32,000 bases of DNA, taken from assembly GCF_008065095.1 (NCBI RefSeq), contig NZ_CP042911.1, positions 5,700,001-5,732,000 of the forward strand, given 5' to 3'. Positions 14,585 to 32,000 of the stretch are shown piece after piece. The stretch comes from Gemmata obscuriglobus (GTDB taxonomy: Bacteria; Planctomycetota; Planctomycetia; Gemmatales; Gemmataceae). How positions within the stretch are numbered: position 1 is the stretch's first letter; every line of letters starts with the position of its first letter. Below the pieces are notes generated by a model. The model was not told where the DNA came from, did no database searches, and saw only the letters and a list, made by a program, of their open reading frames with translations. A program made the position numbers and the translations under genes.

Positions 14585-14596
14585 ATGCGAACGACA

Positions 14597-16676: not shown

Positions 16677-16810
16677 CGAACCTTTGGTTTCGTCGCGTGG
16701 GCGGGTTGAGAAGAGTCTGATGTGATCGTACCGGGCGGCGCCCGTGCGGTCAATCGGCCCCCGCGCACACCGCAACACGAACCGGGGCGGGCGGCCCGCG
16801 GCGGGGCCGG

Positions 16811-17193: not shown

Positions 17194-17877
17194 CTAGGGA
17201 GCTTCAGACGGGGCCGCAATTACCTCGCCTCGCAGCCCGTCCAACCCCTCGCTCCCGAGGCGGATGAGGCGTCCGCCCACTTCGACCTCGAACAGGTCGT
17301 CGAGTTCCTGGTACGAGAGCACGTGAACGCTGGCCCCGGGCGTGAGCCCCTGCTGCTGCCAGCGGCGGAGCCGGTCGGGGTTGTCGTCCTGGGCCTCGCG
17401 CACGACTACCATGTCTCCCGCCCGGAACTCGGACAGTCGCTTCAAGTTCCGCGCCTGGAGCACCCCGGAGCTGGACGGAATCAGGTGCCCGTGCGGGTCC
17501 TCGTGCGGCTCGCCAAGGTAATCGGCGATCGCCTGCTCGAGCCGCGGCGAGATGGCGTGCTCCAGCGCTTCCGCTTCGGCGTCCACCTCGCTCCAGTCGA
17601 GCTTCAGGGCCTTGGTGAGAAACAGCTCCACGAGCCGGTGCCGCCGGATCACCCGGAGCGCCTCGGTCCGCCCGCCCGGCGACAGTTTCGCGCCCTCGCC
17701 GGCGGAATATTCGATCCAGCCGGCGTCCGCGAGCCGCTTCAACATTCCGGTGACGGAGGGTGCCTTCACCCCCAGCGCGCTGGCAATCTTCCCGGACGGC
17801 ACGCCCTCATCGGCGCCACCGAGCATGTGAATAGCTTTCAGATAGTCTTGAACGGCTGGCGACAATTGTTCGGCCAT
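17194..17877 (-). CDS. DtxR/MntR-family metal-dependent transcriptional regulator with a FeoA/SH3-like C-terminal domain
   Basis: MAEQLSPAVQDYLKAIHML...IASALGVKAPSVTGMLKRLADAGWI (wHTH), RRHRLVELFL and DWSEVDAEAEALEHAISP (metal and dimerisation region). The C-terminal part FRAGDMVVVREAQDD...VHVLSY is FeoA-like. Confidence 0.85.
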   Translation of the reverse strand: MAEQLSPAVQDYLKAIHMLGGADEGVPSGKIASALGVKAPSVTGMLKRLADAGWIEYSAGEGAKLSPGGRTEALRVIRRHRLVELFLTKALKLDWSEVDAEAEALEHAISPRLEQAIADYLGEPHEDPHGHLIPSSSGVLQARNLKRLSEFRAGDMVVVREAQDDNPDRLRRWQQQGLTPGASVHVLSYQELDDLFEVEVGGRLIRLGSEGLDGLRGEVIAAPSEAP

Positions 17878-17967
17878 GCCGGGGACTCCGAATCCGTGAG
17901 GTGTGCCACCACTTATCATAACGAACGGACAAGGAAAGGCGGTGATGAGTTCGTGAATCGGGCCGGT

Positions 17968-19110
17968 TCACGCAGCGCGAACCGCGGCCGGTGCCGTTTT
18001 CCCGATGAGGAACGCGGCAGCGCGGTCGCACGCGCCCGGAACCGCGGCCCGGGACCGTAGTGCGATCAGGCGATCGACAACTGCCTGACGCCGAGCGGGG
18101 TCATTGAGCCAGCCCACGATTTCGCCCGCCATTTCGGCCGAGCGGTCGTGCCAGGTGGGGTACTCAGGGTACAGCGGCTCGTTGAGCAGCAAGTTGACGA
18201 GGGACATGTACTTAACGTTGATGAGCTGTTTCAGCACCCATCCCTCGACCCGTCCGACGCAGTACATCACAACGGTCGGCTTCGCCCGGTACATCAACTC
18301 CAAGCTGACCGAACCAGATACGGAGAGGCACGCGTCGGCGAGTTCAATCACTTCTGGCGTGCGCCCGACGTGGATCTCGACCGGCAACCCAGTGGGCAGG
18401 AGCGCGCGGACCGCTTCGGCTTGGGTCGCGTTGAACGCCCCGATTAAGAACCGCACGTCCGGTCGGGCCACATGGATCTTCTGCGCGGTTGCGAGCATTG
18501 TGCGCGCGTTGGCGGCAATCTCGCTGTTGCGCGAACCCGGCAGCAGTGTCACCCGCACGCCCGGCTTCGCCCGCTCTTGCACCAAGAAATCGGGGTCGAG
18601 GCGCTGCCGCGCGAGTTCGTCGAAATACGGGTGGCCGATGTAGTGCGTCTGCACCCCGCGCTTCCGATACCATTCGTCCTCGAACGGCAGCGCCGTGAGT
18701 ACGCCCGTGAAGCACTTCCGCACGGTGCGGACGCGCCCGGATCGCCACGCCCAAATCTGCGGGGGAACGAAGAAGTATGTGGGTACGCCGAAGTCGCGGA
18801 TGCGTTTGGCGAGTTCGAGGTGGAAGCCCGGGTAGTCGATCATGACCACCGCATCGGGCCGCTGCGTGCGGATGTGATGAATCGCAAGGTTGCCGATGCG
18901 AAATAGTGCGGGCAGCGCCTGGACAACACCGCGCAGCCCCATCACGGCGAACTTGGGGAGCGGGAACAGAATGTCCGCGCCGGCGGCTCGCATCCCATCG
19001 CCGCCGAAGGCGGTGACGTGCGTGTCAGGAGAATGAGCGCGAAGAGCGCGAACGAGATTCGCGCCGTGCAGATCCCCGCTCGGCTCACCGGCGCTGACGA
19101 AAACCTTCAT
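17968..19110 (-). CDS. lpxB: Lipid-A-disaccharide synthase
   Basis: MKVFVSAGEPSGDLHGANLVRAL, VVMIDYPGFHLELAKR, YFVPPQIWAWRSGR, LLPGSRNSEI and SGSVSLELM are canonical LpxB. Confidence 0.9.
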   Translation of the reverse strand: MKVFVSAGEPSGDLHGANLVRALRAHSPDTHVTAFGGDGMRAAGADILFPLPKFAVMGLRGVVQALPALFRIGNLAIHHIRTQRPDAVVMIDYPGFHLELAKRIRDFGVPTYFFVPPQIWAWRSGRVRTVRKCFTGVLTALPFEDEWYRKRGVQTHYIGHPYFDELARQRLDPDFLVQERAKPGVRVTLLPGSRNSEIAANARTMLATAQKIHVARPDVRFLIGAFNATQAEAVRALLPTGLPVEIHVGRTPEVIELADACLSVSGSVSLELMYRAKPTVVMYCVGRVEGWVLKQLINVKYMSLVNLLLNEPLYPEYPTWHDRSAEMAGEIVGWLNDPARRQAVVDRLIALRSRAAVPGACDRAAAFLIGKTAPAAVRAA

Positions 19111-19156
19111 GATGCGGCATCCTTGCCAGCAAGCAGTTGACCCGAGGGGCGCGACC

Positions 19157-19576
19157 TCACCCCTTGGCGGGAGGCGGAGTCAGCGCGGAAGCGTCCACGC
19201 CTGCAACGCCATTCCCGGCCCCGCGACCAGGCAGTTCGGTCGTCTCGGCGACACGACGGTACCCGAGCGAGCGAAGAACTTCAAGCACTTCGCTCCACGT
19301 CGGGAACGGGCGCCGGTTCTCGCGCTTGTACCGGTCCATTGCCTTCATGAACTCGGTCTCGTCGTCGGAGTAGTCGCGCTCACAGGTGGTCGGGTCGATC
19401 AGCCTGCGCCGCTCACTACTCTTCCGCTTGGCAGCGGCGTTCTCCGCGCGACGACGGTCCGTCGCAACGGGAATGTTGCGCTTGCGGCGGTCGGCGGGAA
19501 AGGGCGTAGTTCCGGACTTGGAACCGTTTGTAGGTTCAACGGCCGCGGGTTGCGGGGCGTTTACTGGGTTCGACAT
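19157..19576 (-). CDS. Hypothetical protein with a basic, disordered N-terminal half and a compact C-terminal module
   Basis: I trimmed it to [16 protein letters not shown] basic stretch [29 protein letters not shown] is followed by [42 protein letters not shown]. No family name recalled. Confidence 0.55.
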
Positions 19577-19949
19577 CTGCGGTGCCTCACAGCCAATAGT
19601 GGGGGGCGGCTGGAGCCAAGCATCCGCGGCCGTCCTGGCCAATCGCGTTTATCGCGATCCTCGGGGATGAACGGGTGTTTCTAAACCTACCCGACGGATG
19701 GGATGTGTCAACCGGAATTCACATACCAACCAAAATCGGGCAACATTTACTGCGGCAGCTTTTGAGGATTAGCACGCGGCGCGAAACGAGGCGATTTATG
19801 CGCCCGCCTTGACTCCAGTAGCCGATCGCAATTCGTAACAAGTTCCGTGCCGAATACCCGCCTGTTCTGCAGAAAGTGGCTGCAATGTTCCACGCAATCG
19901 CGTGATGAATTTTCGGAAGTGACGGATTGTGTGGAACTACGCGACTGTA

Positions 19950-19983
19950 GGGGTTCGGCTTATTAACATGGATGCCGATCCCC
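19950..19983 (-). terminator. Hairpin about 50 nt downstream of the OMP gene stop
   Basis: GGGGTTCGGC (19950-19959) pairs with GCCGATCCCC (19974-19983) at 9 of 10 positions, with a 14-nt AT-rich loop. There is no U-tract. Confidence 0.3.
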
Positions 19984-20035
19984 ATAACCAGTCGCGTGGC
20001 GTTCTCGACGAGGTAAATTGGCCTCGGTTCCCCGA

Positions 20036-21457
20036 TCAGAAGTTGTAGTTGAAGAACGTCATCGCTTCAAACGCCCATGGGCGCGGGCCAGCCACCGGGA
20101 TGCACATGGACGCGCTGAGCGTCGCCCGGTTGAAGCGGAAGTGCAGCCCGCTGGTAATGTTCACCTGGTCCTGGAGGTACACCAGGCCGGCCGGGTTGCG
20201 GCCCGACAGCGGCGTTCGGACGTGGAACTCGACCATCGGCGCGATGCTCGTCAGCCACGCGTCCGGCGCGCGGTAGAGGTAGTACCCCATACCGACGCTG
20301 TTGTTGAAAAGCGTCGGGTCGCGTCCGTCCGTCGGCACAACGAGGCTCGTGATCCCCTGGAAGAACGCGCGGTCCATCACCCGCACGAACCCGAGCCAGG
20401 GTTGGAACAGCACCGAGTGCGGGGCCTGCGATCCGTCTGCCAGGATCACGTCGCCGCTCCCGGTCGGAACCGTCAGCGCCAGCCCGGCCGACACCACGTT
20501 CCCGGTCTGCGCGTCGTTCACGAACGCGTACTTGAAGAGGAGCGTCAGGTCCCCAATGGTGTGTGAACTGCCTAACTCAGACGGGCCGTACTGCTGCTGG
20601 AACGGGAGCCGCATACCGAACGAAGCGTCCCCTCCCAGGAACACCTTTTCGAACCCCACGAGTTGGCGCTGCAGGTCGACCTGCCCCAGCCCGGGGTTCA
20701 GCTTTCCGCCGATGTCGTCGTAGAAGTTGAACCCGCCGTAGAACCGGTCCTGCGGACGCGGGTTGTCATTGTCCGTGATCAGGACGCCGCTGTAGCGTGA
20801 GGCCAGCGTCAGCCGCACGAGGCGTGTCTGCGCCACACGATCACTGACGATCACCGGGTCGTTCACGATCACCGGGGTGAGTGTCGTGGTGTTCGTGATG
20901 GTGGTCGTTGTCGTGCGCCCGCCCTGGGGGTCGGTTGTGGTTCCCGTGGTGGTGGTGCTTGTTGTCGTCGGCGTGAACCCGGTGACCCGCTGGGTGAACC
21001 CAACGACCCGGGGAACGGTGGTGAACCCGGTAGTGATACGGCGCGAGTAGTACACACCGCCGAAGTCGCCGTCGAAGTTCTCGTTAAACGTGCGCGGCGC
21101 GAGCCCCCCCGCCTCGGTCGCCTGCGCGAACGGGTCCACGAGCCGCCGTTCCAGCGGGTTCGGCGGCGACGGGTACGGCATCACCGGAGGGCGGTCTGGT
21201 GGCAGGCTCGGCATCCCCCCGGGCGGTGCGACCGGCGGGTCCATCTGCGGCACCGGCTCGGACGGTGCGGTCGGGATACTCGGGGCCCCGGGCGTCAGCG
21301 GCCCGACGCCCAGAGGCGGGCACGGCACCGTCGCCGGGCGCGAGTGTTTGAACGGACCGCCGGCCGCGATCACCGAAGGGACGACGCGCTCCTGGGCGAG
21401 CGACGATGCGGTCGCAACCCCGATCCCGGCAAGAGCGGAGAGAAGCACCCGGCGCAT
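20036..21457 (-). CDS. Outer-membrane beta-barrel protein (porin/transporter-like) with Pro-rich and poly-Thr N-terminal linkers
   Basis: I trimmed it to MRRVLLSALAGIGVATASSLAQE (signal peptide). A Pro-rich segment is followed by TPTTTSTTTTGTTTDPQGGRTTTTTITNTTT. The C-terminal half has alternating amphipathic strands and ends in the beta-barrel signature ...AMTFFNYNF (terminal Phe). Confidence 0.75.
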   Translation of the reverse strand: MRRVLLSALAGIGVATASSLAQERVVPSVIAAGGPFKHSRPATVPCPPLGVGPLTPGAPSIPTAPSEPVPQMDPPVAPPGGMPSLPPDRPPVMPYPSPPNPLERRLVDPFAQATEAGGLAPRTFNENFDGDFGGVYYSRRITTGFTTVPRVVGFTQRVTGFTPTTTSTTTTGTTTDPQGGRTTTTTITNTTTLTPVIVNDPVIVSDRVAQTRLVRLTLASRYSGVLITDNDNPRPQDRFYGGFNFYDDIGGKLNPGLGQVDLQRQLVGFEKVFLGGDASFGMRLPFQQQYGPSELGSSHTIGDLTLLFKYAFVNDAQTGNVVSAGLALTVPTGSGDVILADGSQAPHSVLFQPWLGFVRVMDRAFFQGITSLVVPTDGRDPTLFNNSVGMGYYLYRAPDAWLTSIAPMVEFHVRTPLSGRNPAGLVYLQDQVNITSGLHFRFNRATLSASMCIPVAGPRPWAFEAMTFFNYNF

Positions 21458-21580
21458 GGGAACGCTCCGTGACCGAGGGACGATGGAACCCCGAGAACGC
21501 GACGCGCCTGCTTTATCGGCACGACACATATTCCCGGTTCAATCGTTCCTTCTCGCGTCTGCGAATACGCCGGTCCCTTC

Positions 21581-23101
21581 CTATTCCCGCGCGACGTGGA
21601 TCGGGACCACCTTTCGAACGACCTTGTTCGGCTCGAACGGGAACCGCTCGGTCGGCTCCATACTGAAACGCCAGACGTAGCGAGACCCGTGCTTACTGCG
21701 TACGATCGTCGGAGCAGGGAGTTCCGTTTCCGAAACGAAAAGAACGAAGTGTTCAACCGCCGTCTTACCGCCACCGTTGATCCCCCCAATGACGAAGGAC
21801 TTTCCATTGGGTGGCAACAGCCTCTGCGCCTGTCCGGGTTTAAGGACATTCCCGCCCAGCACCTCCTGAACGCGCACTTCGCCGTCGGCCTGTACCATGA
21901 GCAGCGTGAAATACACCTTCTGCTCGCACCGCACCTCCAGCGTAAACGGCTCGTCGACCTTGACCTGCGTGACCGGCTTCGCGCCGACGATGAGATCGAC
22001 CTTGAGCTTGAGCGGCGATTCTCGGGGCACCACGTCACCCGCGTACCAAGCCGACAGAGGCGGGATCGGCATGCGCCCCGGGCCCGCACTCGGAACAGAA
22101 ACCGGCTTCAACCCGGCAAACGGCCGTGCCACTGGCCCGTCCGGTGCCATGTCAGTGGGTTCTAAGCGCTGCAACGCGCTCAACGCAAACAGATCTGCGG
22201 CGAGCGGCGAGCGCGGCCCCCACCCGAACACGGCTTTCGGCGCCCAAGCCGGCGCCAGCAGCGACGACGAGAGCCAGTCGCCCCGCAGGTACGGGACCGG
22301 GACCACCGCCCCCCGAAGGCCTGGGAGTTCCTTTAACCGCGCCGCCGGCAGTTCGTCCGGCCGAAGCGCGGTGGCGTGTGGGTTCTCTCGTTCGATCAAC
22401 ACGTCGAGATGGGTCGGGGCGGCGTTCCGGGTCGGCCTGCGCCCTTCCATCAACTCGAACACGTAACCGCCCCGCCATTGCTGTTCGACGAGATCGAACC
22501 GGAACACGGTGCCCGCCTCGTCAACCGGTTCGAGCGCGGCGCCGGTTCGTGCAGACGAACTGAGCGCCAGCGCGATACGGAGATCGCGCTCCGCCGCGCC
22601 GAGGTCCGGGTGGGGCTCTCCGTCCCGCACGAGGTGCGCGAACGAGACGTACTGCTTCGTCTTCGACAGGTCGGGGTTGTTTTTGAACTGGTCGGCGATG
22701 GTGCCGAGGACGTAATCCTCGTCGAACGCGAGCGGGTACCCCGGCGCGCTCGCGTCGATCCATTTCTTGAGGACCGCAACCTCAGCCGGGGTGGGCGCCG
22801 CCCGGTTGCCGGGCGGCATCGAGCCGTCCGCGAGTAACTCGAGGAGGAGCGAGCGTTCCCCCGCAGCAGCGAGCGGGATCGGCTTCTTCTTCTCGCCGAC
22901 CACCTGCGCGTGGTCGAGCAGATTCGTGCGGCTCTTCCCGGGGGCTGCGCTGCCGGTGTGGCACTCGGCGCAATGCCGCTTGAGGATGTCCCGCGCTTTG
23001 ATCGCGAGATCGCCGCGCCCCCGGTGGTCAAGCGGTTCGGCCCCGCGCGCGCCCGCGGAAGCGAGAAGCACTAACGCGACGGCACCAGCAATCGAGCGCA
23101 T
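21581..23101 (-). CDS. Secreted haem-c (CxxCH, PSCyt1-like) protein with a C-terminal DUF4384-like domain
   Basis: Signal peptide MRSIAGAVALVLLASAGARGAEP. ILKRHCAECHTG (Cys codons at 22970-22972 and 22961-22963, His at 22958-22960) followed by GSMPPGN...LKKWIDASAP resembles the planctomycete cytochrome c domain. The C-terminal VKVDEPFTLEVRCEQKVYFTLLMVQADGEVRVQ...HFVLFVSETELP (about 21716-22015) resembles DUF4384. Confidence 0.75.
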   Translation of the reverse strand: MRSIAGAVALVLLASAGARGAEPLDHRGRGDLAIKARDILKRHCAECHTGSAAPGKSRTNLLDHAQVVGEKKKPIPLAAAGERSLLLELLADGSMPPGNRAAPTPAEVAVLKKWIDASAPGYPLAFDEDYVLGTIADQFKNNPDLSKTKQYVSFAHLVRDGEPHPDLGAAERDLRIALALSSSARTGAALEPVDEAGTVFRFDLVEQQWRGGYVFELMEGRRPTRNAAPTHLDVLIERENPHATALRPDELPAARLKELPGLRGAVVPVPYLRGDWLSSSLLAPAWAPKAVFGWGPRSPLAADLFALSALQRLEPTDMAPDGPVARPFAGLKPVSVPSAGPGRMPIPPLSAWYAGDVVPRESPLKLKVDLIVGAKPVTQVKVDEPFTLEVRCEQKVYFTLLMVQADGEVRVQEVLGGNVLKPGQAQRLLPPNGKSFVIGGINGGGKTAVEHFVLFVSETELPAPTIVRSKHGSRYVWRFSMEPTERFPFEPNKVVRKVVPIHVARE

Positions 23102-23119
23102 CGGATCACCTCGCCAGGT

Positions 23120-26100
23120 TCAGCGCTTGATGAGCGGGTCTTTCGGCAGGTCGCGCGGGAACGACGCGGGCGTTTGCGGCCCGCTCAGTCCCGCGCCCCG
23201 GAGCAGCGCGGGGAGTTCCGCGGAGACGTAATCGAACAGTTCGTCGGCCGACACGACCCCGTTGTTGTCGAAGTCCGCTTTGCGGTAGTCCCTGTCCTTG
23301 TCGAGCGCGTTGAGTACAGCCCGCGTGAACAGCCCGTGCTGGTACTTCGCGTGTTCGTAGGACCGCTGACCCTCGTCGCACGCGGCGATAATGAGCGGCC
23401 CCTGCCCGTTGGGCACGCACCGGCGGAGCATGTTTGTGGTCGCGAGTCGGCCCGAGTGGCAGGCGTCAAGAAGCACCACCTTCCGACAGTTAACCTTGGC
23501 CAGCGCCGCGAACAACTCGTCCGCCGCGACCGCCGTTTCTGTCGGTTTCGCGGGCGAGTAGTTCGGCGTGCACAACACGAACGCGCCCTTGTCGCCCGGC
23601 AACCCCGGTCCCACTGTGGGAACCGGCCCGTCGTTCGGCATAAGTACGTCACCGTGGCCCGCGAAGAACACCACCAGCGTGTCGTCCGGCTGAACCTGAT
23701 CGGCGACCGCGCGCAGGGCGTCGAGGAGTTTGCCCCGTTTGGGGTCCAGGTGCGTGTCGGCGCTGGCCGTTTCGTAAAGGAGGTTACCGCCGGCGCATTG
23801 CTTCAGCAGCTTGCCGAGTTCGGTCGCGTCGTTGCGGGCGTGAAGAAGGTCGCCGAAGTTCCGCGCGCCCGCGTTCATCTGGCGGGTGCCGGAGTAGTCG
23901 TTCACACCGACGAGCACCGCGAACAGTCGCGCCGCCGGCGAAGACCGGGGGTTGGGCACCCACTGCACCTCTTCGACCCGGCCGCCTGCCGAGTTGACCG
24001 CAACCACCGTCAAACGATTCGGGCCGGCACGGAACCGGTTCGCCGGAATCGGGTATCGCTCCTCGAATGGCTTCCGCGGGTCCAGTTGCCGCCCCGCACG
24101 GGGCCATTCTTCGATGAGGAAGTCGTTGAGCCACAGCTCGACGCGCTCGGGCAATAGGTCGGGGTTGGTGCCGCGCGCCCGGACGGTGATCGTGACGGGC
24201 AGCCCGGCGTTCGTGACCTCGTGGTGCCCCAGGCCCAATCGCACCGGCGCGGGCTCGGACTTGTTGAACAGGTCGCGGGTCGGGTGCTCATTGCGGGCGG
24301 TTAGGAGCGCCGCCGCCACACCGGCGTCCACCAGGGTCTCCATCACGTCGGGCCGATGGAACAGCCGTTCAAACTGCTGGAGTTGGTAGAACTCCGGGCG
24401 CCCGCCCGGGTCCGGGGCGTTGACGTGCCACCCTACGAGCCGGTCCCCGTTGACCGTTTTGGTGTGGTAGTACGACCCGTGCCACATCCATACGACCCAG
24501 TCGTTCATGCGGCCGGCGCTGTCGAACGCCGGAAACCACTTCCAGGTCGGGCGCTGCCGGACGGTGGTGAGCGTCTCGCGGCGCGGCGTCTTCTCTCCGG
24601 CCGCAATTCCGAAATACAGCTCGATTCTGGGTTTCGGGGCCTTGAGCGCCGCGAGGGCGTCTTGCGGGGTGCCGACCGCCTTCAGCTTCACCGTCCGGTC
24701 GAACACTGTGACCCGGTCCACGGCCAGGAGGTCGAGCACGTCACCCTTCCGCAGGCCGGCCTCCCACGCGGGCGAGCCGGTTTCGAGGGTCACAACCCGC
24801 ACCGCCCCGTTGTGCTCCTCGAACGTCGCGCCGAGGTTCGGCGCGTCCTTCCAATCTTCCAGGGACCACGCCGCGACCGTCTGGTCGGTCCCCCCGGTGA
24901 CGAACCAGGTCTGACTCCTCGCCGCCACGACCGATGTCACCTCGCCCGCGTGGCCGGTGTACACCTTCGTTCCGACGAACCCGCCACGGACCGCGCGCTC
25001 GGGAACCAGTTCGAACAGCGTGCAGCCGTAATAGTGCCCCACGATCACGCGGGTGGGCCGCTTCTCGGACGCGGGGAGGAACGTGTAGCAAGTCGGGGCC
25101 AGATCGCGGAACCGGTCGAGTTCGAGTCGGAACCTCTGCCTCTCGCCCATCTGGGTGCGTTCGACGAACCACTCGTACCGGTTATCCGAGTTCGGCACCA
25201 CTTCCCACCCGTCGGCACTCCGGACCGGTCCGACCCACTTTTGGCCCTCGTCGGAACTCTCCTTCAGGCGCGACAGATCGAACCGGCTCCACGGGCCGCT
25301 GCCCCGCTTATTGGGGTCGAGCGAGCGGGCGTCCCGCGCGGTTTGAATGCCGACCATCTTTCCGTTTTCGGACAGATTAACCGCCCACGGGCGCCGCCCG
25401 CCGCCGCGCACCACCTGCGGCTTCTCGTCGGGTTTGTCGAGTTTTCGCACCGTGATCTCATCGGCATCGCCACCTGCAATCGCGAGGCGCGCGTCTGTCG
25501 GGTGAAAAGCGAGCGCCTCGGCCCGCCCGGTGTGGGTGATGACGTCCGGTTCCGCACCGGGCTTCGCGAGCGGGTCGGCGTAGATCCGAACCTCGTCGTT
25601 CCCCTCGGCGAAGAAGCGCGGCCCCTCCCCCTCCGGCGCGAGGGCGCGACCGACCCCCACCGCCAGCGCGCGCGTCTTCGGGTGCCAGGCGAGGCTGCGC
25701 GGGAACCGGTCCTTGCCGAGTTCGAGGCGCACCGTCTGTTTGCCGTCGGCGCGGCACAGCAGCACCTTGGAGTCCGCACTGGCGACCGCGATCCACCGCC
25801 CGCCGTCGATCCGCTCGACGCGATACACCCGCGCGTCCACGGGTTCGGCGGCGTTCACGTTGAACAGTTCTTTCCCCGGCGGCGGCCGTTCCGGGGTATC
25901 GGCAGCGGTGTCGTCGAACGCGCAGGCATACACCTGACCGCTTTGAGCGACTGAAACCAGGGTGCCGTTCTCGGAGAACCAGATCAGCCGCGGCCGGTTG
26001 AACGGCTCCGACCCGACCGTTCGTTTCGGTAAGTCGTGCTTGCCGACGCGAACCGGCGGCGCCGCGGTGCGCCCGTCCTGGTCCGGCTCGGGAAGCGGCT

Positions 26101-26629
26101 TCGGGTTCCAGAGCCAGAGGCTGCCGTCCGCGGTGCCGAACCCGACCCGACCGTCCGCGTGAAACGCGACCGCCGTGACGATGTTAAAGTTCGCGTCCCC
26201 TTTGCGCACGAGCGGCCACGTGAGTGCGACCGTTTCGCCGGTCGCCCGGTCGAGCACCGCGACCGTGCTGGGTTTCATTCCGTACCCGCCCACCACGACG
26301 TTCTTGCCGTCGGAGGAAATGTCGAGGGCCTGGATGCCGCCGCGCTGCTCGCGCCACGCCCGCCAGCGCAAGACCTGCGCCTTCGCGCGCTCCGTTTCCA
26401 GGCCGCTGCTGGTGTACGGCCAGACCCGCACCACCTTGTCGTCACCCGCGGCGAACAGTAACCGCCCGTCGCCCGAGAACCGCAGAACGTCACAGGCGCC
26501 GAACCGCCCGCCCGCCTCGACCACGATCTCGGGCTCTTCGCGGGACCGGCGGTCGAACTGCTGCCCGCCCGCATCGGGCGCCGTCAGGACGAGAGCGAAA
26601 CCGACCAGTGTGGTAAGAAGGTTGGCCAT
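23120..26629 (-). CDS. Giant multidomain caspase-family (peptidase C14) protein: N-terminal hydrophobic anchor or signal, WD40/beta-propeller region, PDZ, caspase His-Cys domain, C-terminal EF-hand loop
   Basis: The start is probably MANLLTTLVGFALVLTA (26629); the ORF is open to 26710. WD40-like strands: RFSGDGRLLFAAGDDKVVRVWPY, VTGGTDQTVAAWSLEDW. PDZ: GAVRVVTLETGSPAWEAGLRKGDVL (about 24566-24832). Caspase: RLFAVLVGVNDY, VVFFAGHGD (His codon 23654-23656), VVLLDACHSG (Cys codon 23459-23461). Canonical EF-hand loop DFDNNGVVSADE (23240-23275). Confidence 0.85.
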   Translation of the reverse strand: MANLLTTLVGFALVLTAPDAGGQQFDRRSREEPEIVVEAGGRFGACDVLRFSGDGRLLFAAGDDKVVRVWPYTSSGLETERAKAQVLRWRAWREQRGGIQALDISSDGKNVVVGGYGMKPSTVAVLDRATGETVALTWPLVRKGDANFNIVTAVAFHADGRVGFGTADGSLWLWNPKPLPEPDQDGRTAAPPVRVGKHDLPKRTVGSEPFNRPRLIWFSENGTLVSVAQSGQVYACAFDDTAADTPERPPPGKELFNVNAAEPVDARVYRVERIDGGRWIAVASADSKVLLCRADGKQTVRLELGKDRFPRSLAWHPKTRALAVGVGRALAPEGEGPRFFAEGNDEVRIYADPLAKPGAEPDVITHTGRAEALAFHPTDARLAIAGGDADEITVRKLDKPDEKPQVVRGGGRRPWAVNLSENGKMVGIQTARDARSLDPNKRGSGPWSRFDLSRLKESSDEGQKWVGPVRSADGWEVVPNSDNRYEWFVERTQMGERQRFRLELDRFRDLAPTCYTFLPASEKRPTRVIVGHYYGCTLFELVPERAVRGGFVGTKVYTGHAGEVTSVVAARSQTWFVTGGTDQTVAAWSLEDWKDAPNLGATFEEHNGAVRVVTLETGSPAWEAGLRKGDVLDLLAVDRVTVFDRTVKLKAVGTPQDALAALKAPKPRIELYFGIAAGEKTPRRETLTTVRQRPTWKWFPAFDSAGRMNDWVVWMWHGSYYHTKTVNGDRLVGWHVNAPDPGGRPEFYQLQQFERLFHRPDVMETLVDAGVAAALLTARNEHPTRDLFNKSEPAPVRLGLGHHEVTNAGLPVTITVRARGTNPDLLPERVELWLNDFLIEEWPRAGRQLDPRKPFEERYPIPANRFRAGPNRLTVVAVNSAGGRVEEVQWVPNPRSSPAARLFAVLVGVNDYSGTRQMNAGARNFGDLLHARNDATELGKLLKQCAGGNLLYETASADTHLDPKRGKLLDALRAVADQVQPDDTLVVFFAGHGDVLMPNDGPVPTVGPGLPGDKGAFVLCTPNYSPAKPTETAVAADELFAALAKVNCRKVVLLDACHSGRLATTNMLRRCVPNGQGPLIIAACDEGQRSYEHAKYQHGLFTRAVLNALDKDRDYRKADFDNNGVVSADELFDYVSAELPALLRGAGLSGPQTPASFPRDLPKDPLIKR

Positions 26630-26730
26630 AGAGCCCCCGGAGCCACAGGCGGGACCAGGATACCATACACGGACGGGCGGGGTGAGATTCGTGTACACTG
26701 GCGGAACCATTCCTGACCGGGACCGGGCCG
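26630..26730. promoter_or_regulatory. Divergent intergenic region between the caspase gene and the kinase gene; contains short palindromes
   Basis: 101 bp if the caspase gene starts at 26629. TACACG (26666-26671) and CGTGTA (26690-26695) are inverted repeats. GTGTACAC (26691-26698) is an 8-bp perfect palindrome. I did not recognise a promoter consensus. Confidence 0.3.
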
Positions 26731-28593
26731 ATGTCCGACACGCTACCCAACGACGACCGGAACCGACTCACGGCCCGCGCCGACCGGTTCCAGCACGCGC
26801 TTGTAAACGGCGGTGTGACCGACTTCGCGGAATTTCTGGACGGATTGGTCGGCGGGGAGCGGTTGAAGTTGCTGACCGAACTGGTCGCGCGCGAGCTACG
26901 GCACCGCTGGGCCGGCGGAGAACGGCCGCGGATCGAGGAGTACCTCGCCCGGTTTCCCGAACTCGCGCCCGGCGGGGCGGCGCCGCCTGCGCTGATCATT
27001 GAAGAGTACCGCTGTCGAATTCAGGCCGGCGAGCCCCCCGACCCGCTCCAGTTCCGTGACCGGTTCCCGGACCAGTTCGCCGCCGTCCAGGCGGACTTCG
27101 ACGCGGTGACGGCGTCGGGCACGGTGAAAGCGGCGTCGGCGCCGCACCTGCCCCCGACCGCCCGCGGGATGGTGGAGGTGGCGCAGCAGTACGAACTGAT
27201 CCGCGAGCTGGGCCGCGGGATGTTCGGCGAGGTGTGGCTCGCGCGGAAGAAGCCGAGCGGCATCGAGCGCGCGATCAAGATCCTCCACCAGGCCGCGGAC
27301 CGCGAGGCCGGGCAGCGCGAGCTGGTGTCGCTCGAACTGATCAAGAACCTGCGGCACCCGTACATCCTGGCGACCGAAGACTTCTGGGTGACGGAGAACC
27401 GGCTCCACATCGTCATGGAGCTGGCCGAGGGCACGCTCCGCGGGCGGCTGAAGCAGTGCCTCACCGAGGGCCACCCCGGGGTGCCCGCTGGGGAACTGTT
27501 CCGGTACATCGCTGAGGCCGCCGAGGGGCTGGACTTCCTGCACGAGCAACACATCGTTCACCGCGACGTCAAGCCGGACAACATCCTCATTCTGCACGGC
27601 CACGCGAAGGTCGCGGACTTCGGTTTAGCCCGCGCGCAGGCGCAAGGGGTCGAGTCCATGAGCCTCGCGGGGACGCCCGCGTACATGGCCCCGGAAATCT
27701 GGGGCGGCGAGGGCGGCGCGGCCAGCGACCTTTACAGCCTCGCCTTTGCCTACGTCGAACTGCGACAGGGGCACTCGCCGCTCAAGCCGTGTCCGTTCGG
27801 CGAGTTGATGCTCGCGCACTACGAGGGCCGGTACGAGTTCAGCGAGGTTGTGACCGAACCCGAGCGCGCGGTGTTGCGTCAAGCGCTGGCGGCAAAACCG
27901 CACGAGCGCTACCGGTGCTGCACGGACTTCGTCGCGGCGCTGTCGGTCGCACTCGGAATACCGTTCGCCGCTACGGGGCGGCACTCCGCCACCACACCGC
28001 CGCTCCCGCCCCCGCCGCTCAACGGCGGTTCGGTAGCCGCGTTCGCCAGCGGCAGCCGGCCCGCCATCGACACGGCCACAGCGGGCGGTACGGTCGTCAT
28101 CGATTCGCTGCCAAAGAAGCCGCGCCCCAAGGCCGTTCCCGATCCCGTGGAACCGGAGCCTCCGGAGCCCGAACTCTTCGGAGAGCCGGAACCGGATGCC
28201 GCTACCCGCCGGTTCGGACCGCTGGTCGTGGCCGCCACTCTGGCGCTGGTCACGCTGGTAGCGGTCGGTGCCTGGGCACTGTTCAACCGCCCCGGTGGTG
28301 TGCCAACATCCGTCACAGAAGCCCCACCGCCCCCCCCCCACACACACCCAAGGATGACACCCTCGCACCGCCCCCCCGGCGGGTCGATCCGCGCCCGCCA
28401 GAACCGCCAGGTCCGAAATGGGTGTTCCCGGTGGGCACAACGCCAGAGGCCGGAGCGAAAGAAATTGCGCTCGTCGGGAAAATGGTCCCGGAGTGGGTCA
28501 CCGCCCAGCACAACGGCAAAGCGGTACGGTTCCGACTCATCAGCGGACCGCCAGGGCCGTCGGTCGCGTTTTACATCTCCGAAACGAAGGTGA
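26731..28593 (+). CDS. Membrane Ser/Thr protein kinase (Hanks type); the reading frame after the poly-C tract at 28330 is probably not the native one
   Basis: GRGMFGEVWLA (G-loop), AIKIL (Lys codon 27277-27279), HRDVKPDNIL (27559-27582), DFG (27616-27624), GTPAYMAPE, a Pro-rich linker, and the TM helix LVVAATLALVTLVAVGAWALF (28219-28284). Residues after APPPPP are Arg/Ser-rich and look like nonsense. Confidence 0.85.
   Translation: MSDTLPNDDRNRLTARADRFQHALVNGGVTDFAEFLDGLVGGERLKLLTELVARELRHRWAGGERPRIEEYLARFPELAPGGAAPPALIIEEYRCRIQAGEPPDPLQFRDRFPDQFAAVQADFDAVTASGTVKAASAPHLPPTARGMVEVAQQYELIRELGRGMFGEVWLARKKPSGIERAIKILHQAADREAGQRELVSLELIKNLRHPYILATEDFWVTENRLHIVMELAEGTLRGRLKQCLTEGHPGVPAGELFRYIAEAAEGLDFLHEQHIVHRDVKPDNILILHGHAKVADFGLARAQAQGVESMSLAGTPAYMAPEIWGGEGGAASDLYSLAFAYVELRQGHSPLKPCPFGELMLAHYEGRYEFSEVVTEPERAVLRQALAAKPHERYRCCTDFVAALSVALGIPFAATGRHSATTPPLPPPPLNGGSVAAFASGSRPAIDTATAGGTVVIDSLPKKPRPKAVPDPVEPEPPEPELFGEPEPDAATRRFGPLVVAATLALVTLVAVGAWALFNRPGGVPTSVTEAPPPPPHTHPRMTPSHRPPGGSIRARQNRQVRNGCSRWAQRQRPERKKLRSSGKWSRSGSPPSTTAKRYGSDSSADRQGRRSRFTSPKRR
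28330..28339 (+). repeat. C10 homopolymer at the frame break of the kinase gene; a second C7 run lies at 28371-28377
   Basis: Counted directly: position 28330 plus 28331-28339 are all C. The upstream sensible frame has codon starts at 1 mod 3 and the downstream sensible frame at 0 mod 3. Confidence 0.9.
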
Positions 28594-29096
28594 CGAACGC
28601 CGAGTACCGGGCCGGTGGCGACGATGCTCCAGTCGTGAACGTCACCGCGACCGACGCGCAGGCGTTCGCGCGGTCCGCCTACAACGGCTCGCTACCGACC
28701 GCCGAGGAGTGGGACCACGCGGCCGGCTTCCACGACCAGCAGGGGCAGGAAGGACCGAGCCGACGGTCGGGGACCCCGTGGGTCAACCGGGCGGCGGCCG
28801 GTCCCGTCCGACGCCCGGGCGGAGCGGACATCAGCTACTTCGAGTTGCTAGATATGTCGGGTAACGGACGTGAATGGACGCGCACAATTCTCAACGACGG
28901 AAGCGGAAACGACGTGCGCGACGTGGCATCCCCAACGGGCACCGAAAAGGTGGTACTACGCGGCCGCAACTTCGCACTGGATCGGCCGCTCACGTTCAAA
29001 ATGCTGGAAGCGGAACGAAACATCCAGCCCCTGACAGCGCCCGCGAACCGTCCGAGCCCGTTCACGGGCTTCCGTGTGGTACTCAAAGTGCCCTGA
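28422..29096 (+). CDS. FGE-sulfatase (SUMF1/EgtB/PvdO-like) domain segment, most likely the displaced extracytoplasmic C-terminus of the kinase gene
   Basis: The frame is open from 27789, but it only makes sense after 28329: PPPHTPKDDTLAPPPRRVDPRPPEPPGPKWVFPVG. FGE-type motifs: FYISETKVTNAEY, VNVTATDAQAFA, LPTAEEWDHAAG, DMSGNGREWTRT, VLRGRNF, TGFRVVL. Possible independent starts are GTG 28422/28431 and ATG 28482. Confidence 0.7.
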   Translation: MFPVGTTPEAGAKEIALVGKMVPEWVTAQHNGKAVRFRLISGPPGPSVAFYISETKVTNAEYRAGGDDAPVVNVTATDAQAFARSAYNGSLPTAEEWDHAAGFHDQQGQEGPSRRSGTPWVNRAAAGPVRRPGGADISYFELLDMSGNGREWTRTILNDGSGNDVRDVASPTGTEKVVLRGRNFALDRPLTFKMLEAERNIQPLTAPANRPSPFTGFRVVLKVP

Positions 29097-29105
29097 CCGC
29101 GGCTC

Positions 29106-30110
29106 TCACGCCCGGTTCTTGCGCTCACGCCACCGGTTCAGGCTCACGTTCGCGACCAGCAGCGCCCCGATGAGCACATACTGCATTTCGACCGGAACGT
29201 TGAACAGGCTCACGCCGTTCTTGATAAGGATGAGGATCGCGACCCCGAGCATCGCCCCGACCACCCCGCCCTTCCCGCCCGACAGGCTCGCCCCGCCGAT
29301 CACAACCGCGGTAATCACGTCGAGTTCGAGTTGCTCGCCGAGCGTCGGGTTGCCGCTGTTGCTGTGGGCGAACATGATCACCCCGGCCCAGCCGGTGAGC
29401 AGCCCTGCGAGGGTGTATACGAGCACCTTGGTACGGGTGACGTTCACCCCGCACAGCCGTGCCGTCGCCTCGTTCGACCCGACGGCGTACAGGTGGCGCC
29501 CGAATACCGTGAGCCGCAACAGCACGACCGTCAGGAGTGCGAGTGCAACAAGTGACCACAGCCCCGGGTTGGTGAGCGACACACGGCCGACGGTGTTCAC
29601 CCATTCGGGAGTGCCGTTGAGCGGGAACGGGAGGGTAGCGCGTCCGGCGAGCCACACGGCGGCCCCACGTGCGATTCCGAGCATCCCCAGCGTGGCGACG
29701 AACGGCGGTAGCTGGAGTTTCGTCACGAGCAACCCGTTTACGAAACCCACGAGCCCGCCGGCGAGCACCCCGCACACGCACGCCACAACCGAACTCGTGG
29801 GTGACGGGTCGGACGCGGTGTACATCGCAGTGTAGACGCGCATCGTAACAACCGTCACAAGGGCGACGGTAGCACCGACGGACAGGTCGATGCCGCCGCT
29901 GATGAGTACGAGCAGCATCCCCAGCGCGACAACCGCCGGTATCGTCCCCTCATGCAGCAGCACGCGCAGGTTCCCGAGGCTCAGGAACGTGCCCAGGTCG
30001 CCCTTGATGCCGATGAGCGCGGTGAACAGCGCCAGCACAGCGGCGAAGCCGATCCACGGTCCCGCCGGGAGCTTGAACGCGGTGGAAGCAGGCGCAGGAG
30101 AGGTTGCCAT
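29106..30110 (-). CDS. Sugar ABC transporter permease (CUT2, RbsC/AraH-like)
   Basis: I trimmed it to MATSPAPAST. Motifs GGIDLSVGATVAL, FVATLGMLGIARG, YAVGSNEATARLCGVNV and VITAVVIGGASLSGGKGG are typical of the BPD_transp_2 family. The 32 extra N-terminal codons of the listed ORF lie inside the IS element. Confidence 0.85.
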   Translation of the reverse strand: MATSPAPASTAFKLPAGPWIGFAAVLALFTALIGIKGDLGTFLSLGNLRVLLHEGTIPAVVALGMLLVLISGGIDLSVGATVALVTVVTMRVYTAMYTASDPSPTSSVVACVCGVLAGGLVGFVNGLLVTKLQLPPFVATLGMLGIARGAAVWLAGRATLPFPLNGTPEWVNTVGRVSLTNPGLWSLVALALLTVVLLRLTVFGRHLYAVGSNEATARLCGVNVTRTKVLVYTLAGLLTGWAGVIMFAHSNSGNPTLGEQLELDVITAVVIGGASLSGGKGGVVGAMLGVAILILIKNGVSLFNVPVEMQYVLIGALLVANVSLNRWRERKNRA

Positions 30111-30118
30111 CGGTACTT

Positions 30119-30135
30119 CAGTAGTTTCAAGTTGG
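30119..30135. repeat. IS terminal inverted repeat (permease-proximal end)
   Basis: CAGTAGTTTCAAGTTGG. Similarity extends a few more bases if a 1-nt indel is allowed. Confidence 0.85.
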
Positions 30136-31335
30136 CGGCTTGGTTTTGTTGGCCGATCGTGCAGTAGTAATGGACTTATTTTCGCCATCTGTAGGTGCCA
30201 GCCCATCGGCCAACAGTATCAGGCATACCGCCGCCAGTGTCCACCCGAGGCCGCGGGCTGAGCGGGACCACAACCAGGCGTTACGCAGGATCAGCCCGAC
30301 GGCGACCCACAGGAGTCGCACGACCCCATCGGTGGTCGAGGTCCGGGGCCGAACCTGCCCCAACTGGCGGTAGCTGCTCTCGATCCCGAATCGGGTCCGG
30401 TACAGGTCCCGAATCGCCACCGGGCTCCCGCTCACCCGCCACGCCGCGTACAGTAACTTCTTGCTCCGCCGGCCCCCGGTCCGCCGGTACCGGTAGCTCT
30501 TGTGAGCGATCACCACGTGCACCCGCACCGAGGTGCCCCGATCCGCGTGGGTGTACGCATATCGACCCGCGCCCCGCCGCCGCACGGCCCGCAACCCGAC
30601 CCCCTTCACCCCGGGCCGGGGCTTGCGGCCCCGGACCACGGCCGGGATCACGAACGGCACACCCCGCGCCTGGAGCAACCGCATCACCGCGATCGAGAAG
30701 AACGCCTTGTCCAGCAGCGCGACCCGGACCGTAACCCGTGCCGCCGTCACCTGATCCAACAGCCGGGTGAGCACCGCGGTCATCGGCTCCTTCTCGCCCA
30801 CGGCCGTCAACCCGAGCGTGTACCGGTCCGGTCCCCCGACGAGGCACGCGGTGGCGTACGTGTGGAACGTGTGGGTGCCGCCGGCCCCCTTGGACCGGGT
30901 GGTGTCCCGGTTCGGCGTCCCGAAGTACCCGATCCGGTGGTAGTCGATCGCGACCCGAGCCGCCCGCTTCCGCTTGCCGAGCGGGGCGTGGAGGGCCGGC
31001 CGCAACCGCCGCTCGAGGGTGCGGCGCCGCTTGGGCAGCGTGAGGTACAAGCAATCCCAGATGGCCTGCCCGGACGGGGCGTCGGCGATCGCGGCACAGG
31101 CCGCGGCCACCGAGCGGGCGAACGCCGCGGCGAACAGCACCACCCGCCACACCACCTCGGGTGTACAGGTGCGGCGACGCTTGGGCAGTTGGACCGCACG
31201 GCCGAGCCAGTCGGTCAGGACCGGACGGAGGTGCCGGGTGGCGTGGGCCGGGGTGGCTCGGATAGACTGACGTTTGGGTCGCATGGGGGCTCCGACAGTG
31301 GAGGCGTGGTAACCACCATTGACCGGTAAACCCAT
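30127..31335 (-). CDS. DDE transposase (IS4-superfamily-like)
   Basis: 402 aa, or 385 aa from the MRPKRQS start at 31284 (GGAG upstream). Candidate DDE residues are in VAIDYH, ALLDKAF and YRTRFGIESSYRQL (Y-x2-R-x3-E signature). The stop falls inside the terminal IR. The IS family is not assignable by eye. Confidence 0.8.
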   Translation of the reverse strand: MGLPVNGGYHASTVGAPMRPKRQSIRATPAHATRHLRPVLTDWLGRAVQLPKRRRTCTPEVVWRVVLFAAAFARSVAAACAAIADAPSGQAIWDCLYLTLPKRRRTLERRLRPALHAPLGKRKRAARVAIDYHRIGYFGTPNRDTTRSKGAGGTHTFHTYATACLVGGPDRYTLGLTAVGEKEPMTAVLTRLLDQVTAARVTVRVALLDKAFFSIAVMRLLQARGVPFVIPAVVRGRKPRPGVKGVGLRAVRRRGAGRYAYTHADRGTSVRVHVVIAHKSYRYRRTGGRRSKKLLYAAWRVSGSPVAIRDLYRTRFGIESSYRQLGQVRPRTSTTDGVVRLLWVAVGLILRNAWLWSRSARGLGWTLAAVCLILLADGLAPTDGENKSITTARSANKTKPPT

Positions 31336-31358
31336 GCGGCCCGCTACTCATAAATCGC

Positions 31359-31375
31359 CCAACTTGAAACTACTG
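31359..31375. repeat. IS terminal inverted repeat (ATPase-proximal end)
   Basis: CCAACTTGAAACTACTG, the exact reverse complement of 30119-30135. Confidence 0.85.
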
Positions 31376-31396
31376 TACTTCGTTTGAGAGAACGCG

Positions 31397-32000
31397 TTAC
31401 GGGTTCCCGGTCGCGGTCGCGATGACCGCTTCCGGTGTCCATTCGGAAACGGGGCGCACGGCCGAGAGCCGGCCGCGGGTCATCACCGCGAGGGTGTCAC
31501 ACACGCCGAACAGTTCCGGCAGGTAGCTGCTCACCACCAGAACCGCCTTGCCACTCGCCGCGGCCTCGCCGATGAGGCGGTAAATGTCGGACTTGCTGCC
31601 GACATCCACGCCCTTCGTTGGCTCGTCGAGCAGCAGTACGTCGGCACGCTGGTGGAACAGCCGAGCCAGCGCGACCTTCTGCTGGTTCCCGCCGCTCAAT
31701 TCACCGACCGGCTGCCCCGCATCGCGGAACTTCACCCCGAACCGGTTCAGTACCTCACCGACCGCCGCACTCAGACGCGACCGCGACAGGAAGCCGGCGC
31801 GGGCGCCTTCGTCGAGCCGACTGAGAGCGACGTTGTCCGCGATCGGTAGCTCCAGCGCCAGGCCCTCCGTCTTGCGGTCCTCGCTGACGAACCCGAGCCC
31901 CTGCCGAATACGATCGCGCGGCGTCGCCTGCCCTCCGCCGAAGGCACCAATTCTGACGCGCCCGGAGCGAACCGGATCGAGCCCGTACACCGCCCGAAGG
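31397..32000 (-). CDS. Sugar ABC transporter ATP-binding protein (CUT2, RbsA/MglA-like); only the C-terminal half is present and the 5' end lies beyond the window
   Basis: GFVSEDRKTEGL, LSGGNQQKVALARLF, LLLDEPTKGVDVGSK and VLVVSSYLPELFGVCD are typical of the second nucleotide-binding domain of dual-domain CUT2 ATPases. The frame is open to the window end. Confidence 0.85.
   Translation of the reverse strand, partial: LRAVYGLDPVRSGRVRIGAFGGGQATPRDRIRQGLGFVSEDRKTEGLALELPIADNVALSRLDEGARAGFLSRSRLSAAVGEVLNRFGVKFRDAGQPVGELSGGNQQKVALARLFHQRADVLLLDEPTKGVDVGSKSDIYRLIGEAAASGKAVLVVSSYLPELFGVCDTLAVMTRGRLSAVRPVSEWTPEAVIATATGNP

What the first reader, a model, noticed from the sequence alone, without database searches (positions are those of the whole stretch)
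28285..28421. Frame break at a C10 (and nearby C7) homopolymer separates the kinase/TM part from its FGE-sulfatase sensor domain
The kinase frame (codon starts at 1 mod 3) is meaningful through the TM helix and ...TSVTEAPPPPP. It then degenerates into Arg/Ser-rich nonsense until the stop at 28593.

The frame with codon starts at 0 mod 3 becomes meaningful exactly after the C10 run at 28330-28339 (PPPHTPKDDTLAPPP...KWVFPVG). It continues as an FGE-sulfatase-like domain to 29096. The third frame has a stop at about 28355.

One extra C (C11), two fewer (C8), or a -1 slip would fuse the two parts into the well-known STK-TM-FGE architecture of about 788 aa. There are three explanations:
1. A homopolymer indel error in the assembly, which is the most mundane.
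2. A genuine frameshift pseudogene.
3. Slipped-strand phase variation, or transcriptional/ribosomal slippage on the C run. This would switch the kinase between sensor-bearing and sensor-less forms.

Option 3 would be notable because this kinase sits next to the caspase module.
Basis: seen in the sequence. Interest (0 to 1): 0.65.

Follow-up and report, generated by a model that had tools for sequence, protein, structure and literature searches.

The report
One-base homopolymer miscount splits kinase gene
The apparent break in this Gemmata obscuriglobus kinase gene is one missing C in an 11-C run, seen only in this assembly and in no other assembly of the same strain, so it is almost certainly a sequencing or assembly slip, not a biological switch.

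Summary
C10 lies at 28330-28339 and C7 at 28371-28377. The kinase frame (26731..28593) turns into an Arg/Ser-rich tail after the C10. The FGE-sulfatase-like domain continues in the -1 frame to 29096.

The break is specific to this assembly. The product predicted for C11 (788 aa) is, residue for residue, an existing Gemmata obscuriglobus protein (AWM37192.1 / WP_010041392.1). It is encoded on the complete genome CP025958.1 and in five assemblies of SRA runs.

Across all 32,000 bases, the window is 100% identical to those independent assemblies except for this single C. It is the only homopolymer longer than 7 in the window. Products of C7, C8, C9, C12, C13 or C14 alleles do not exist in a 15-billion-protein collection. 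The split products (620 and 168 aa) occur only in the 9,032,617-bp assembly that the window comes from.

All orthologues are single kinase-TM-FGE genes. The closest one (G. algarum, 91%) has no homopolymer there.

Four of nine SRA-run assemblies break at the tract, so it is a hard spot to sequence.

Best reading is a homopolymer undercall (about 0.8). A real 1-nt deletion in that culture is the main rival. Phase variation or recoding has no support. Interest is low.

The parts
26731..28339 (+). 5' part of the single kinase-TM-FGE gene, in the frame with starts at 1 mod 3. It holds the N-terminal region, the kinase domain, a Pro-rich spacer, the TM helix and the start of the outer linker, up to the end of the C tract.
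   Evidence: ORF list. Pfam Pkinase at residues 154-352, E=1e-42. Identical to residues 1-536 of P0121 (WP_010041392.1).
27190..27909 (+). Hanks-type Ser/Thr kinase catalytic domain (residues 154-393).
   Evidence: Pfam PF00069 and PF07714. Motifs GRGMFG 161, AIK 181, HRDVKPDN 277, DFG 296 and APE 320 are all present.
28213..28287 (+). Single transmembrane helix (residues 495-519, FGPLVVAATLALVTLVAVGAWALF).
   Evidence: The one sustained Kyte-Doolittle peak (19-residue mean up to 2.33; windows starting at 494-501, plus one isolated window at residue 396).
28330..28339 (+). C10 homopolymer and site of the frame break. It is C11 in every other assembly of this strain. It encodes part of a poly-Pro stretch in the Pro-rich linker.
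   Evidence: C11 in L002 (CP025958.1), L003 (SRR5887510) and L004 (SRR5887567), with no locus having C10. L060 ends in C11+ACAC and L061 ends at the 11th C.
28371..28377 (+). C7 homopolymer in the same linker. It is not involved in the break.
   Evidence: Same length in CP025958.1, where the gene has C runs at position 1600 (11) and 1642 (7). No difference from the window apart from the C10/C11 tract.
28340..29096 (+). 3' part of the same gene, in the frame with starts at 0 mod 3. It holds the rest of the Pro-rich linker and the extracytoplasmic FGE-sulfatase-like domain (Pfam match at 28614-29081). The stop is at 29094-29096.
   Evidence: Pfam PF03781 at 63.8 bits, E=2.5e-17. Identical to residues 537-788 of P0121. 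91% identical to the G. algarum orthologue across the junction.
28340..28593 (+). Out-of-frame 84-aa Arg/Ser-rich tail of the 620-aa ORF. It is a consequence of the missing C and is not real coding sequence.
   Evidence: Composition R19, S14 of 84. The 620-aa product (P0002) occurs only on the 9,032,617-bp assembly.
28590..29096 (+). The 168-aa ORF (GTG start) recorded as a separate protein (P0122) for this assembly. It starts in the middle of the FGE-like domain and has no signal peptide or TM segment.
   Evidence: Start list. Exact look-up shows P0122 only on the 9,032,617-bp contig. The Pfam match begins only at profile position 87 of 255.

Best explanation
The window comes from a 9,032,617-bp assembly of Gemmata obscuriglobus in which an 11-C homopolymer was recorded as 10 C. 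The real gene is a single 788-aa membrane receptor kinase. It has a cytoplasmic N-terminal region and a Hanks-type Ser/Thr kinase, a Pro-rich spacer, one TM helix, a 45-aa Pro-rich linker, and an extracytoplasmic FGE-sulfatase-fold domain without the catalytic cysteines, which I infer to be a ligand- or sensor-type domain.

The tract is simply CCC/CCA proline codons in that low-complexity linker. The one-base undercall moves the reading frame. Gene callers then produce a 620-aa kinase with a nonsense tail and a 168-aa FGE fragment.

Shown:
- the tract and the frame break;
- exact identity of the C11 product to an existing G. obscuriglobus protein;
- the single-base difference in 32 kb;
- intact orthologues.

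Inferred: that C10 is an error of sequencing or consensus calling and not a real mutation in the culture that was sequenced.
For: 1. The C11 fusion (788 aa) is present exactly in the protein collection as AWM37192.1 / WP_010041392.1 / UPI00016C4E0D, from G. obscuriglobus. The 620-aa and 168-aa products occur only on the 9,032,617-bp contig.
2. The intact gene is on CP025958.1 and on five Logan assemblies of SRA runs. L002, L003 and L004 all have C11 and none has C10.
3. Window 1-16067 equals CP025958.1 at 100%. Window 16731-32000 equals CP025958.1 with 0 mismatches and 1 gap, the tract. Window 7683-24227 equals a Logan contig at 100%. So there is one difference in 32,000 bases, and it sits at the only homopolymer longer than 7.
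4. Products of C7, C8, C9, C12, C13 and C14 alleles are not in the collection.
5. Four of nine SRA-run assemblies end within 4 nt of the tract. Where those ends include the tract, they show 11 C. The site is therefore technically difficult.
6. All 119 listed hits other than the window's own 620-aa product carry Pkinase and FGE-sulfatase in one protein. The G. algarum orthologue (91%, syntenic) is intact at 786 aa, and the C11 version has the same linker length (45 aa).
7. From general knowledge, not tested here: residual consensus errors in long-read assemblies concentrate in long G/C homopolymers, usually as undercalls.
Against: - No raw reads of the window's own assembly could be inspected, so a real 1-nt deletion in the culture used for that assembly is not excluded.
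- The sequencing platform and polishing of that assembly could not be established.
- All named C11 SRA runs are SRR5887xxx; three were not named. They may come from the same laboratory stock as CP025958.1. Independent support for C11 then rests on that stock plus the older WP_/UPI record.
- A slippage mutation would also be expected to hit exactly this tract.
Confidence: 0.8

Rival explanations
1. There is a real 1-nt deletion (C11 to C10) fixed in the particular laboratory or collection culture that was sequenced. That stock would carry a truncated kinase (kinase plus TM plus nonsense tail) lacking its outer domain, that is, a recent pseudogene or loss-of-sensor allele without regulatory meaning.
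For: An 11-C run is the most slippage-prone site in the window. The difference is the only one in 32 kb, as expected for very recently separated stocks. The split products were deposited as they stand in the assembly's annotation.
Against: Every other data set for the strain has C11. From general knowledge, a fixed slippage event at one given tract over the few generations separating stocks of one type strain is much less likely a priori than a consensus error at such a tract. The site demonstrably troubles sequencing.
Confidence: 0.14
2. The C tract is a contingency locus. Slipped-strand mispairing toggles the kinase between a sensor-bearing form (C11, ON) and a sensor-less form (C10, OFF) at a useful frequency. 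The window captured the OFF state.
For: There is a long homopolymer inside an ORF, at a domain boundary, in a genome region otherwise depleted of homopolymers. Two lengths (10 and 11) exist among the assemblies. SRA-run contigs break at the tract in 4 of 9 runs, which could reflect mixed lengths in reads.
Against: - Five SRA-run assemblies and one complete genome give C11, and none gives C10.
- No products of other tract lengths are on record.
- The tract is absent from the 91%-identical G. algarum orthologue, which has ACACATCAGCCCC there. It lies in a linker that varies from 18 to 69 aa among close orthologues, so it is not a conserved device.
- Contig breaks at a poly-C run are what short-read noise and coverage loss produce anyway.
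Confidence: 0.04
3. C10 is real and is rescued by recoding. Either RNA polymerase slips on the C run and adds one C, or the ribosome makes a -1 shift on C CCC CCC. Both a 620-aa and a 788-aa product would then be made from one allele.
For: A run of 10 identical bases allows re-pairing without mismatch in the -1 frame (seen in the sequence). From general knowledge, transcriptional slippage on long homopolymers is known in bacteria.
Against: The 101 nt downstream fold no better than shuffles (z = -1.06, with 29 of 200 shuffles as good). No orthologue needs a frameshift at this position. The other assemblies of the same strain encode the fusion directly.
Confidence: 0.01
4. These are two genuinely separate genes, a kinase and an independent FGE-domain protein.
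For: The assembly's annotation lists two proteins, of 620 and 168 aa.
Against: - The 168-aa ORF starts inside the FGE domain and overlaps the kinase stop (GTGA at 28590-28593).
- In-frame starts upstream of the domain have no signal peptide.
- The 84-aa tail of the 620-aa ORF is compositional nonsense.
- All listed homologues are fusions.
Confidence: 0.01

Closest known systems
WP_010041392.1 / AWM37192.1, 'bifunctional serine/threonine-protein kinase/formylglycine-generating enzyme family protein' of Gemmata obscuriglobus (CP025958.1)
   Same: Identical in all 788 residues to the window's gene once the tract is read as C11. The surrounding DNA is identical over the whole 32 kb.
   Different: One C fewer in the window (C10 against C11).
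Gemmata algarum JC673 orthologue (P0001, 786 aa, JAXBLV010000174.1)
   Same: 91% identity over the full length. It has the same neighbours (a divergent WD40-caspase gene and an ABC permease downstream), the same domain order and the same 45-aa linker length.
   Different: It has no homopolymer at the site (CCG ACA CAT CAG CCC CTC in place of CCG CCC CCC CCC CCA CAC). It also has no IS element next to the permease.
Residual homopolymer indel errors in genome assemblies (general knowledge)
   Same: A single-base length difference confined to the longest G/C homopolymer, with all other bases identical. It splits a conserved ORF into two annotated pieces.
   Different: The platform and reads of this assembly were not available, so this attribution is an inference.
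Homopolymer-driven phase-variable (contingency) genes of Neisseria, Haemophilus and Campylobacter (general knowledge)
   Same: A poly-G/C tract of about 10 inside an ORF whose length sets the reading frame.
   Different: There is no tract-length polymorphism beyond one outlying assembly and no conservation of the tract in the sister species. The tract sits in a fast-evolving Pro-rich linker and not near the 5' end of a surface-structure gene.

Membership tests
Hanks-type Ser/Thr protein kinase (Pfam PF00069) | Profile match above the curated cut-off | tested here: met
   146.8 bits against a cut-off of 31.7, residues 154-352.
Hanks-type Ser/Thr protein kinase (Pfam PF00069) | Catalytic motifs: Gly-rich loop, VAIK Lys, HRD..K..N, DFG and APE | tested here: met
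   GRGMFG 161, AIK 181, HRDVKPDN 277, DFG 296 and APE 320.
FGE-sulfatase domain (Pfam PF03781) | Profile match above the curated cut-off | tested here: met
   63.8 bits against a cut-off of 23.3, but only profile positions 87-254 of 255. Weak PDB sequence matches to the FGE-fold protein CalU17, E=8e-4.
Formylglycine-generating enzyme (catalytic FGE/SUMF1) | Pair of active-site cysteines near the C-terminus (Cys336/Cys341 in human FGE; established knowledge) | tested here: not met
   The protein's cysteines are at 95, 243, 354, 396 and 397 only, and none lies in residues 520-788. It has an FGE fold but should not be filed as an FGE enzyme.
Kinase-TM-FGE fusion family of Planctomycetes | Pkinase and FGE-sulfatase in one polypeptide, with a TM helix between them | tested here: met
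   This holds with C11. There were 3118 hits at E<=1e-10, and all 119 listed hits other than the window's own truncated product carry both domains. There is a single TM helix at 495-519. The C11 product is an exact match to WP_010041392.1.
Phase-variable contingency locus | Simple-sequence tract within the ORF or promoter whose length sets expression | tested here: met
   The C10/C11 run lies inside the ORF.
Phase-variable contingency locus | Tract-length polymorphism among independent samples of the strain or species | tested here: not met
   C11 is in one complete genome and five SRA-run assemblies. C10 is only in the window's assembly. No products of C7-C9 or C12-C14 are on record. Read-level data were not available.
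Phase-variable contingency locus | Tract maintained in related lineages | tested here: not met
   Absent in G. algarum. One MAG orthologue has an in-frame C9 elsewhere in the linker. The linker varies from 18 to 69 aa.
Programmed -1 frameshift or transcriptional slippage gene | Frameshift requirement conserved in orthologues | tested here: not met
   The orthologues examined at DNA level read through this position in one frame. The one draft with a break (L009) breaks about 110 codons upstream.
Programmed -1 frameshift or transcriptional slippage gene | Stimulatory RNA structure downstream of the slippery run | tested here: not met
   MFE of -39.2 against a shuffle mean of -35.8, z = -1.06.

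The most novel reading that the evidence does not exclude
The 10/11-C difference is real biological heterogeneity. Under this reading the tract is a hypermutable switch in G. obscuriglobus that removes or restores the extracytoplasmic FGE-fold sensor domain of a receptor kinase encoded next to a WD40-PDZ-caspase gene. The window's assembly would have captured the sensor-less state. This would be a first contingency locus in Planctomycetes.
Probability: 0.04. Interest if true: 0.5.

Novelty: not a real feature. Interest (0 to 1): 0.08.

Why it matters
The main value is housekeeping. The break has put two spurious proteins into public databases: a 620-aa kinase with an 84-aa nonsense tail, and a 168-aa FGE fragment. 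The correct 788-aa protein is already known.

The case shows that a frame break at the longest homopolymer of a region should first be checked against other assemblies of the same strain.

Only if reads of the source culture truly showed C10, or mixed lengths, would there be a biological story. That story would be loss or switching of a receptor kinase's outer domain.

Tried and rejected
- Look-up of the 620-aa product's contigs found nothing on record, so the window's own assembly is not retrievable. A look-up of an ORF with a wrongly guessed start also failed.
- The genome-contig scan returned orthologues from other species but not G. obscuriglobus itself. The window's assembly could therefore not be named.
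- From memory the window's assembly may be CP042911. A paper confirms only that this accession is a G. obscuriglobus genome, not its size or sequencing method.
- Literature searches for CP025958, for the SRA run numbers and for PacBio details of the G. obscuriglobus genomes gave nothing usable.
- Long et al. 2018 (PMC6855595), cited elsewhere for a mutation rate for G. obscuriglobus, is not held. My guess that the SRR5887xxx runs are its mutation-accumulation lines is unverified.
- Two metagenome scans with conserved flanks of the tract found no natural relatives. Population-level tract variation could not be examined.
- An independent downstream gene is rejected. In-frame starts at 28422, 28431 and 28482 give no signal peptide and are not on record as proteins. 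The recorded 168-aa ORF starts mid-domain.
- A C8 allele is rejected, because its 787-aa product is not on record.
- The C7 tract is rejected as the site of the break, because it is identical in all assemblies.

Full report
**1. The observation**

The window has 65.8% G+C. It has C10 at 28330-28339 and C7 at 28371-28377.

The ORF 26731..28593 (codon starts at 1 mod 3, 620 aa) carries a protein-kinase domain (Pfam PF00069, E=1e-42). All catalytic motifs are present, and there is a single transmembrane helix at residues 495-519. The ORF then reads ...TSVTEAPPPPP, followed by an 84-aa tail dominated by Arg and Ser.

The frame with starts at 0 mod 3 reads sensibly from the tract onwards (PPPHTPKDDTLAPPP...KWVFPVG). 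It matches Pfam FGE-sulfatase (63.8 bits against a cut-off of 23.3) down to the stop at 29094-29096. The third frame has TGA at 28355-28357.

One extra C gives a 788-aa fusion, and two fewer give 787 aa. The tract is the only homopolymer longer than 7 in 32 kb. G/C runs are otherwise depleted relative to shuffles.

**2. What it is**

A search with the C11 fusion returned 3118 relatives at E<=1e-10. All 119 listed hits other than the window's own 620-aa product carry kinase and FGE-sulfatase domains in one protein. The best is a 786-aa protein of Gemmata algarum JC673, at 91% identity and 100% coverage.

That orthologue sits in the same gene neighbourhood. A WD40-caspase gene is divergent upstream, and an ABC permease is convergent downstream. 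A DNA alignment of the two genes (91% identity) shows a 6-nt gap elsewhere and one 1-nt gap, which lies exactly at the tract. G. algarum has ACACATCAGCCCC where the window has CCCCCCCCCCACA.

**3. The decisive result**

An exact-sequence look-up shows that the hypothetical C11 product already exists. It is AWM37192.1 / WP_010041392.1 / UPI00016C4E0D of Gemmata obscuriglobus. The window's 620-aa product and a 168-aa ORF (GTG at 28590) exist only on a 9,032,617-bp contig.

The intact gene is encoded on CP025958.1 (8,998,893 bp) and on five Logan assemblies of SRA runs. The three retrieved loci all have C11, and none has C10.

The window was compared with independent assemblies over its whole length:
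- Window 1-16067 is 100% identical to CP025958.1.
- Window 7683-24227 is 100% identical to a Logan contig.
- Window 16731-32000 equals CP025958.1 with 0 mismatches and a single 1-nt gap, the tract.

So the window is the same strain, and the only difference in 32,000 bases is the length of its longest homopolymer. Products expected from C7, C8, C9, C12, C13 and C14 alleles are absent from the 15-billion-protein collection.

**4. Is the site technically difficult?**

Yes. Of nine SRA-run assemblies that reach the kinase gene, five run through the tract with C11. This count combines, and not every run is named in the outputs. The other four end at it:
- One ends 4 nt after an 11-C run.
- One ends exactly at the 11th C.
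- One ends 1 nt before the tract.
- One was not displayed.

This is what short-read noise or coverage loss at a long poly-C run produces. It also shows how a consensus or polishing step could settle on the wrong length. None of these ends shows C10.

**5. Context of the tract**

The tract encodes proline codons in a 45-aa, 40%-Pro linker between the TM helix and the outer domain. Among the close orthologues this linker varies from 18 to 69 aa and is 25-33% Pro. One MAG orthologue has an in-frame C9 run elsewhere in the linker. The draft of Gemmata sp. IIL30 has a frame break at a different Pro-rich C4/C6 stretch, at about residue 425.

Poly-C runs are thus a recurrent by-product of Pro-rich linkers in these high-G+C genomes. 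They are also a recurrent source of frame breaks in assemblies. They are not a conserved device.

**6. How the gene works (inferred)**

This is a single-pass receptor kinase. It has a cytoplasmic N-terminal region and an active Hanks-type kinase, a TM helix, a flexible Pro-rich stalk, and an extracytoplasmic FGE-fold domain.

The outer domain has no cysteine at all. It therefore lacks the active-site cysteine pair that defines catalytic formylglycine-generating enzymes (established knowledge). It is best regarded as a binding or sensor domain, despite the 'bifunctional' database name. This part is ordinary and already annotated.

**7. Explanations weighed**

- **Assembly or consensus undercall of C11 as C10.** This fits all data and prior experience with long G/C homopolymers. 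About 0.8.
- **A real 1-nt deletion in the sequenced culture.** This cannot be excluded without reads, but it is a priori much rarer. About 0.14.
- **Phase variation.** It is not supported. There is no length polymorphism apart from the one assembly, no conservation of the tract, and all SRA-run assemblies that cross it agree. About 0.04.
- **Recoding.** It is not supported. The downstream RNA folds no better than shuffles (z = -1.06), and no orthologue requires a shift. About 0.01.
- **Two separate genes.** This is refuted. The 168-aa ORF starts mid-domain and overlaps the kinase stop, and all homologues are fusions.

**8. Limits**

I could not name the window's assembly or its sequencing method.

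All named SRA runs with C11 are from the SRR5887xxx series; three were not named. They may share a laboratory stock with CP025958.1. Whether they are the mutation-accumulation lines of Long et al. 2018 is my guess, and that paper was not available.

That WP_010041392.1 / UPI00016C4E0D derives from an older, independent draft genome is inferred from accession numbering only.

No natural relatives were found in metagenome contigs.

**9. Verdict**

The break is almost certainly not a feature of the organism. The gene is known and ordinary. Interest is low.

Noticed in passing
window 30119-31375: A 1257-bp insertion sequence with perfect 17-nt terminal inverted repeats (30119-30135 and 31359-31375). 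It carries a DDE_Tnp_1 transposase ORF (30127..31335, minus strand). It sits between the ABC-transporter permease and ATPase genes, which are adjacent in G. algarum. All SRA-run contigs stop at window 30146, as expected for a multi-copy repeat. The 366-aa permease ORF runs into the IS, so its true start is probably further downstream.
   Followed up: partly
window 20036-26629 (minus strand): A 1169-aa WD40/PDZ/caspase (Peptidase_C14) protein is divergently transcribed from the kinase. Downstream of it on the minus strand lie 506-aa (weak DUF4384 match) and 473-aa proteins without clear domains. The same gene order is kept in G. algarum. Any functional link between the kinase and the caspase was not examined.
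   Followed up: partly
L060:1-60, L061:1-60, L062:1-60 (Logan contigs of SRR5887639, SRR5887597, SRR5887613): SRA-run assemblies of the same strain break within 4 nt of the C tract in 4 of 9 runs. Two contig ends contain 11 C. Read-level tract-length noise or coverage loss was not resolved.
   Followed up: partly
L009:4275-4299 (Gemmata sp. IIL30, HG799468.1): The orthologous kinase-FGE gene in this draft genome has its own frame break at a different Pro-rich stretch (ccacccctccccccg, about residue 425). The near-identical protein of Gemmata sp. SH-PL17 (P0007) is intact there, so this is probably another assembly error.
   Followed up: partly
L007:4590-4598 (MAG SXID01000253.1): An in-frame C9 run encodes PPP in the same TM-to-FGE linker of a 56%-identical orthologue. 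This shows that long C runs arise repeatedly in this linker.
   Followed up: no
window 26731-28593 and 28590-29096: The two products of the broken gene (P0002 of 620 aa and P0122 of 168 aa) are present in NCBI nr and UniRef as separate proteins. They are likely spurious database entries.
   Followed up: yes
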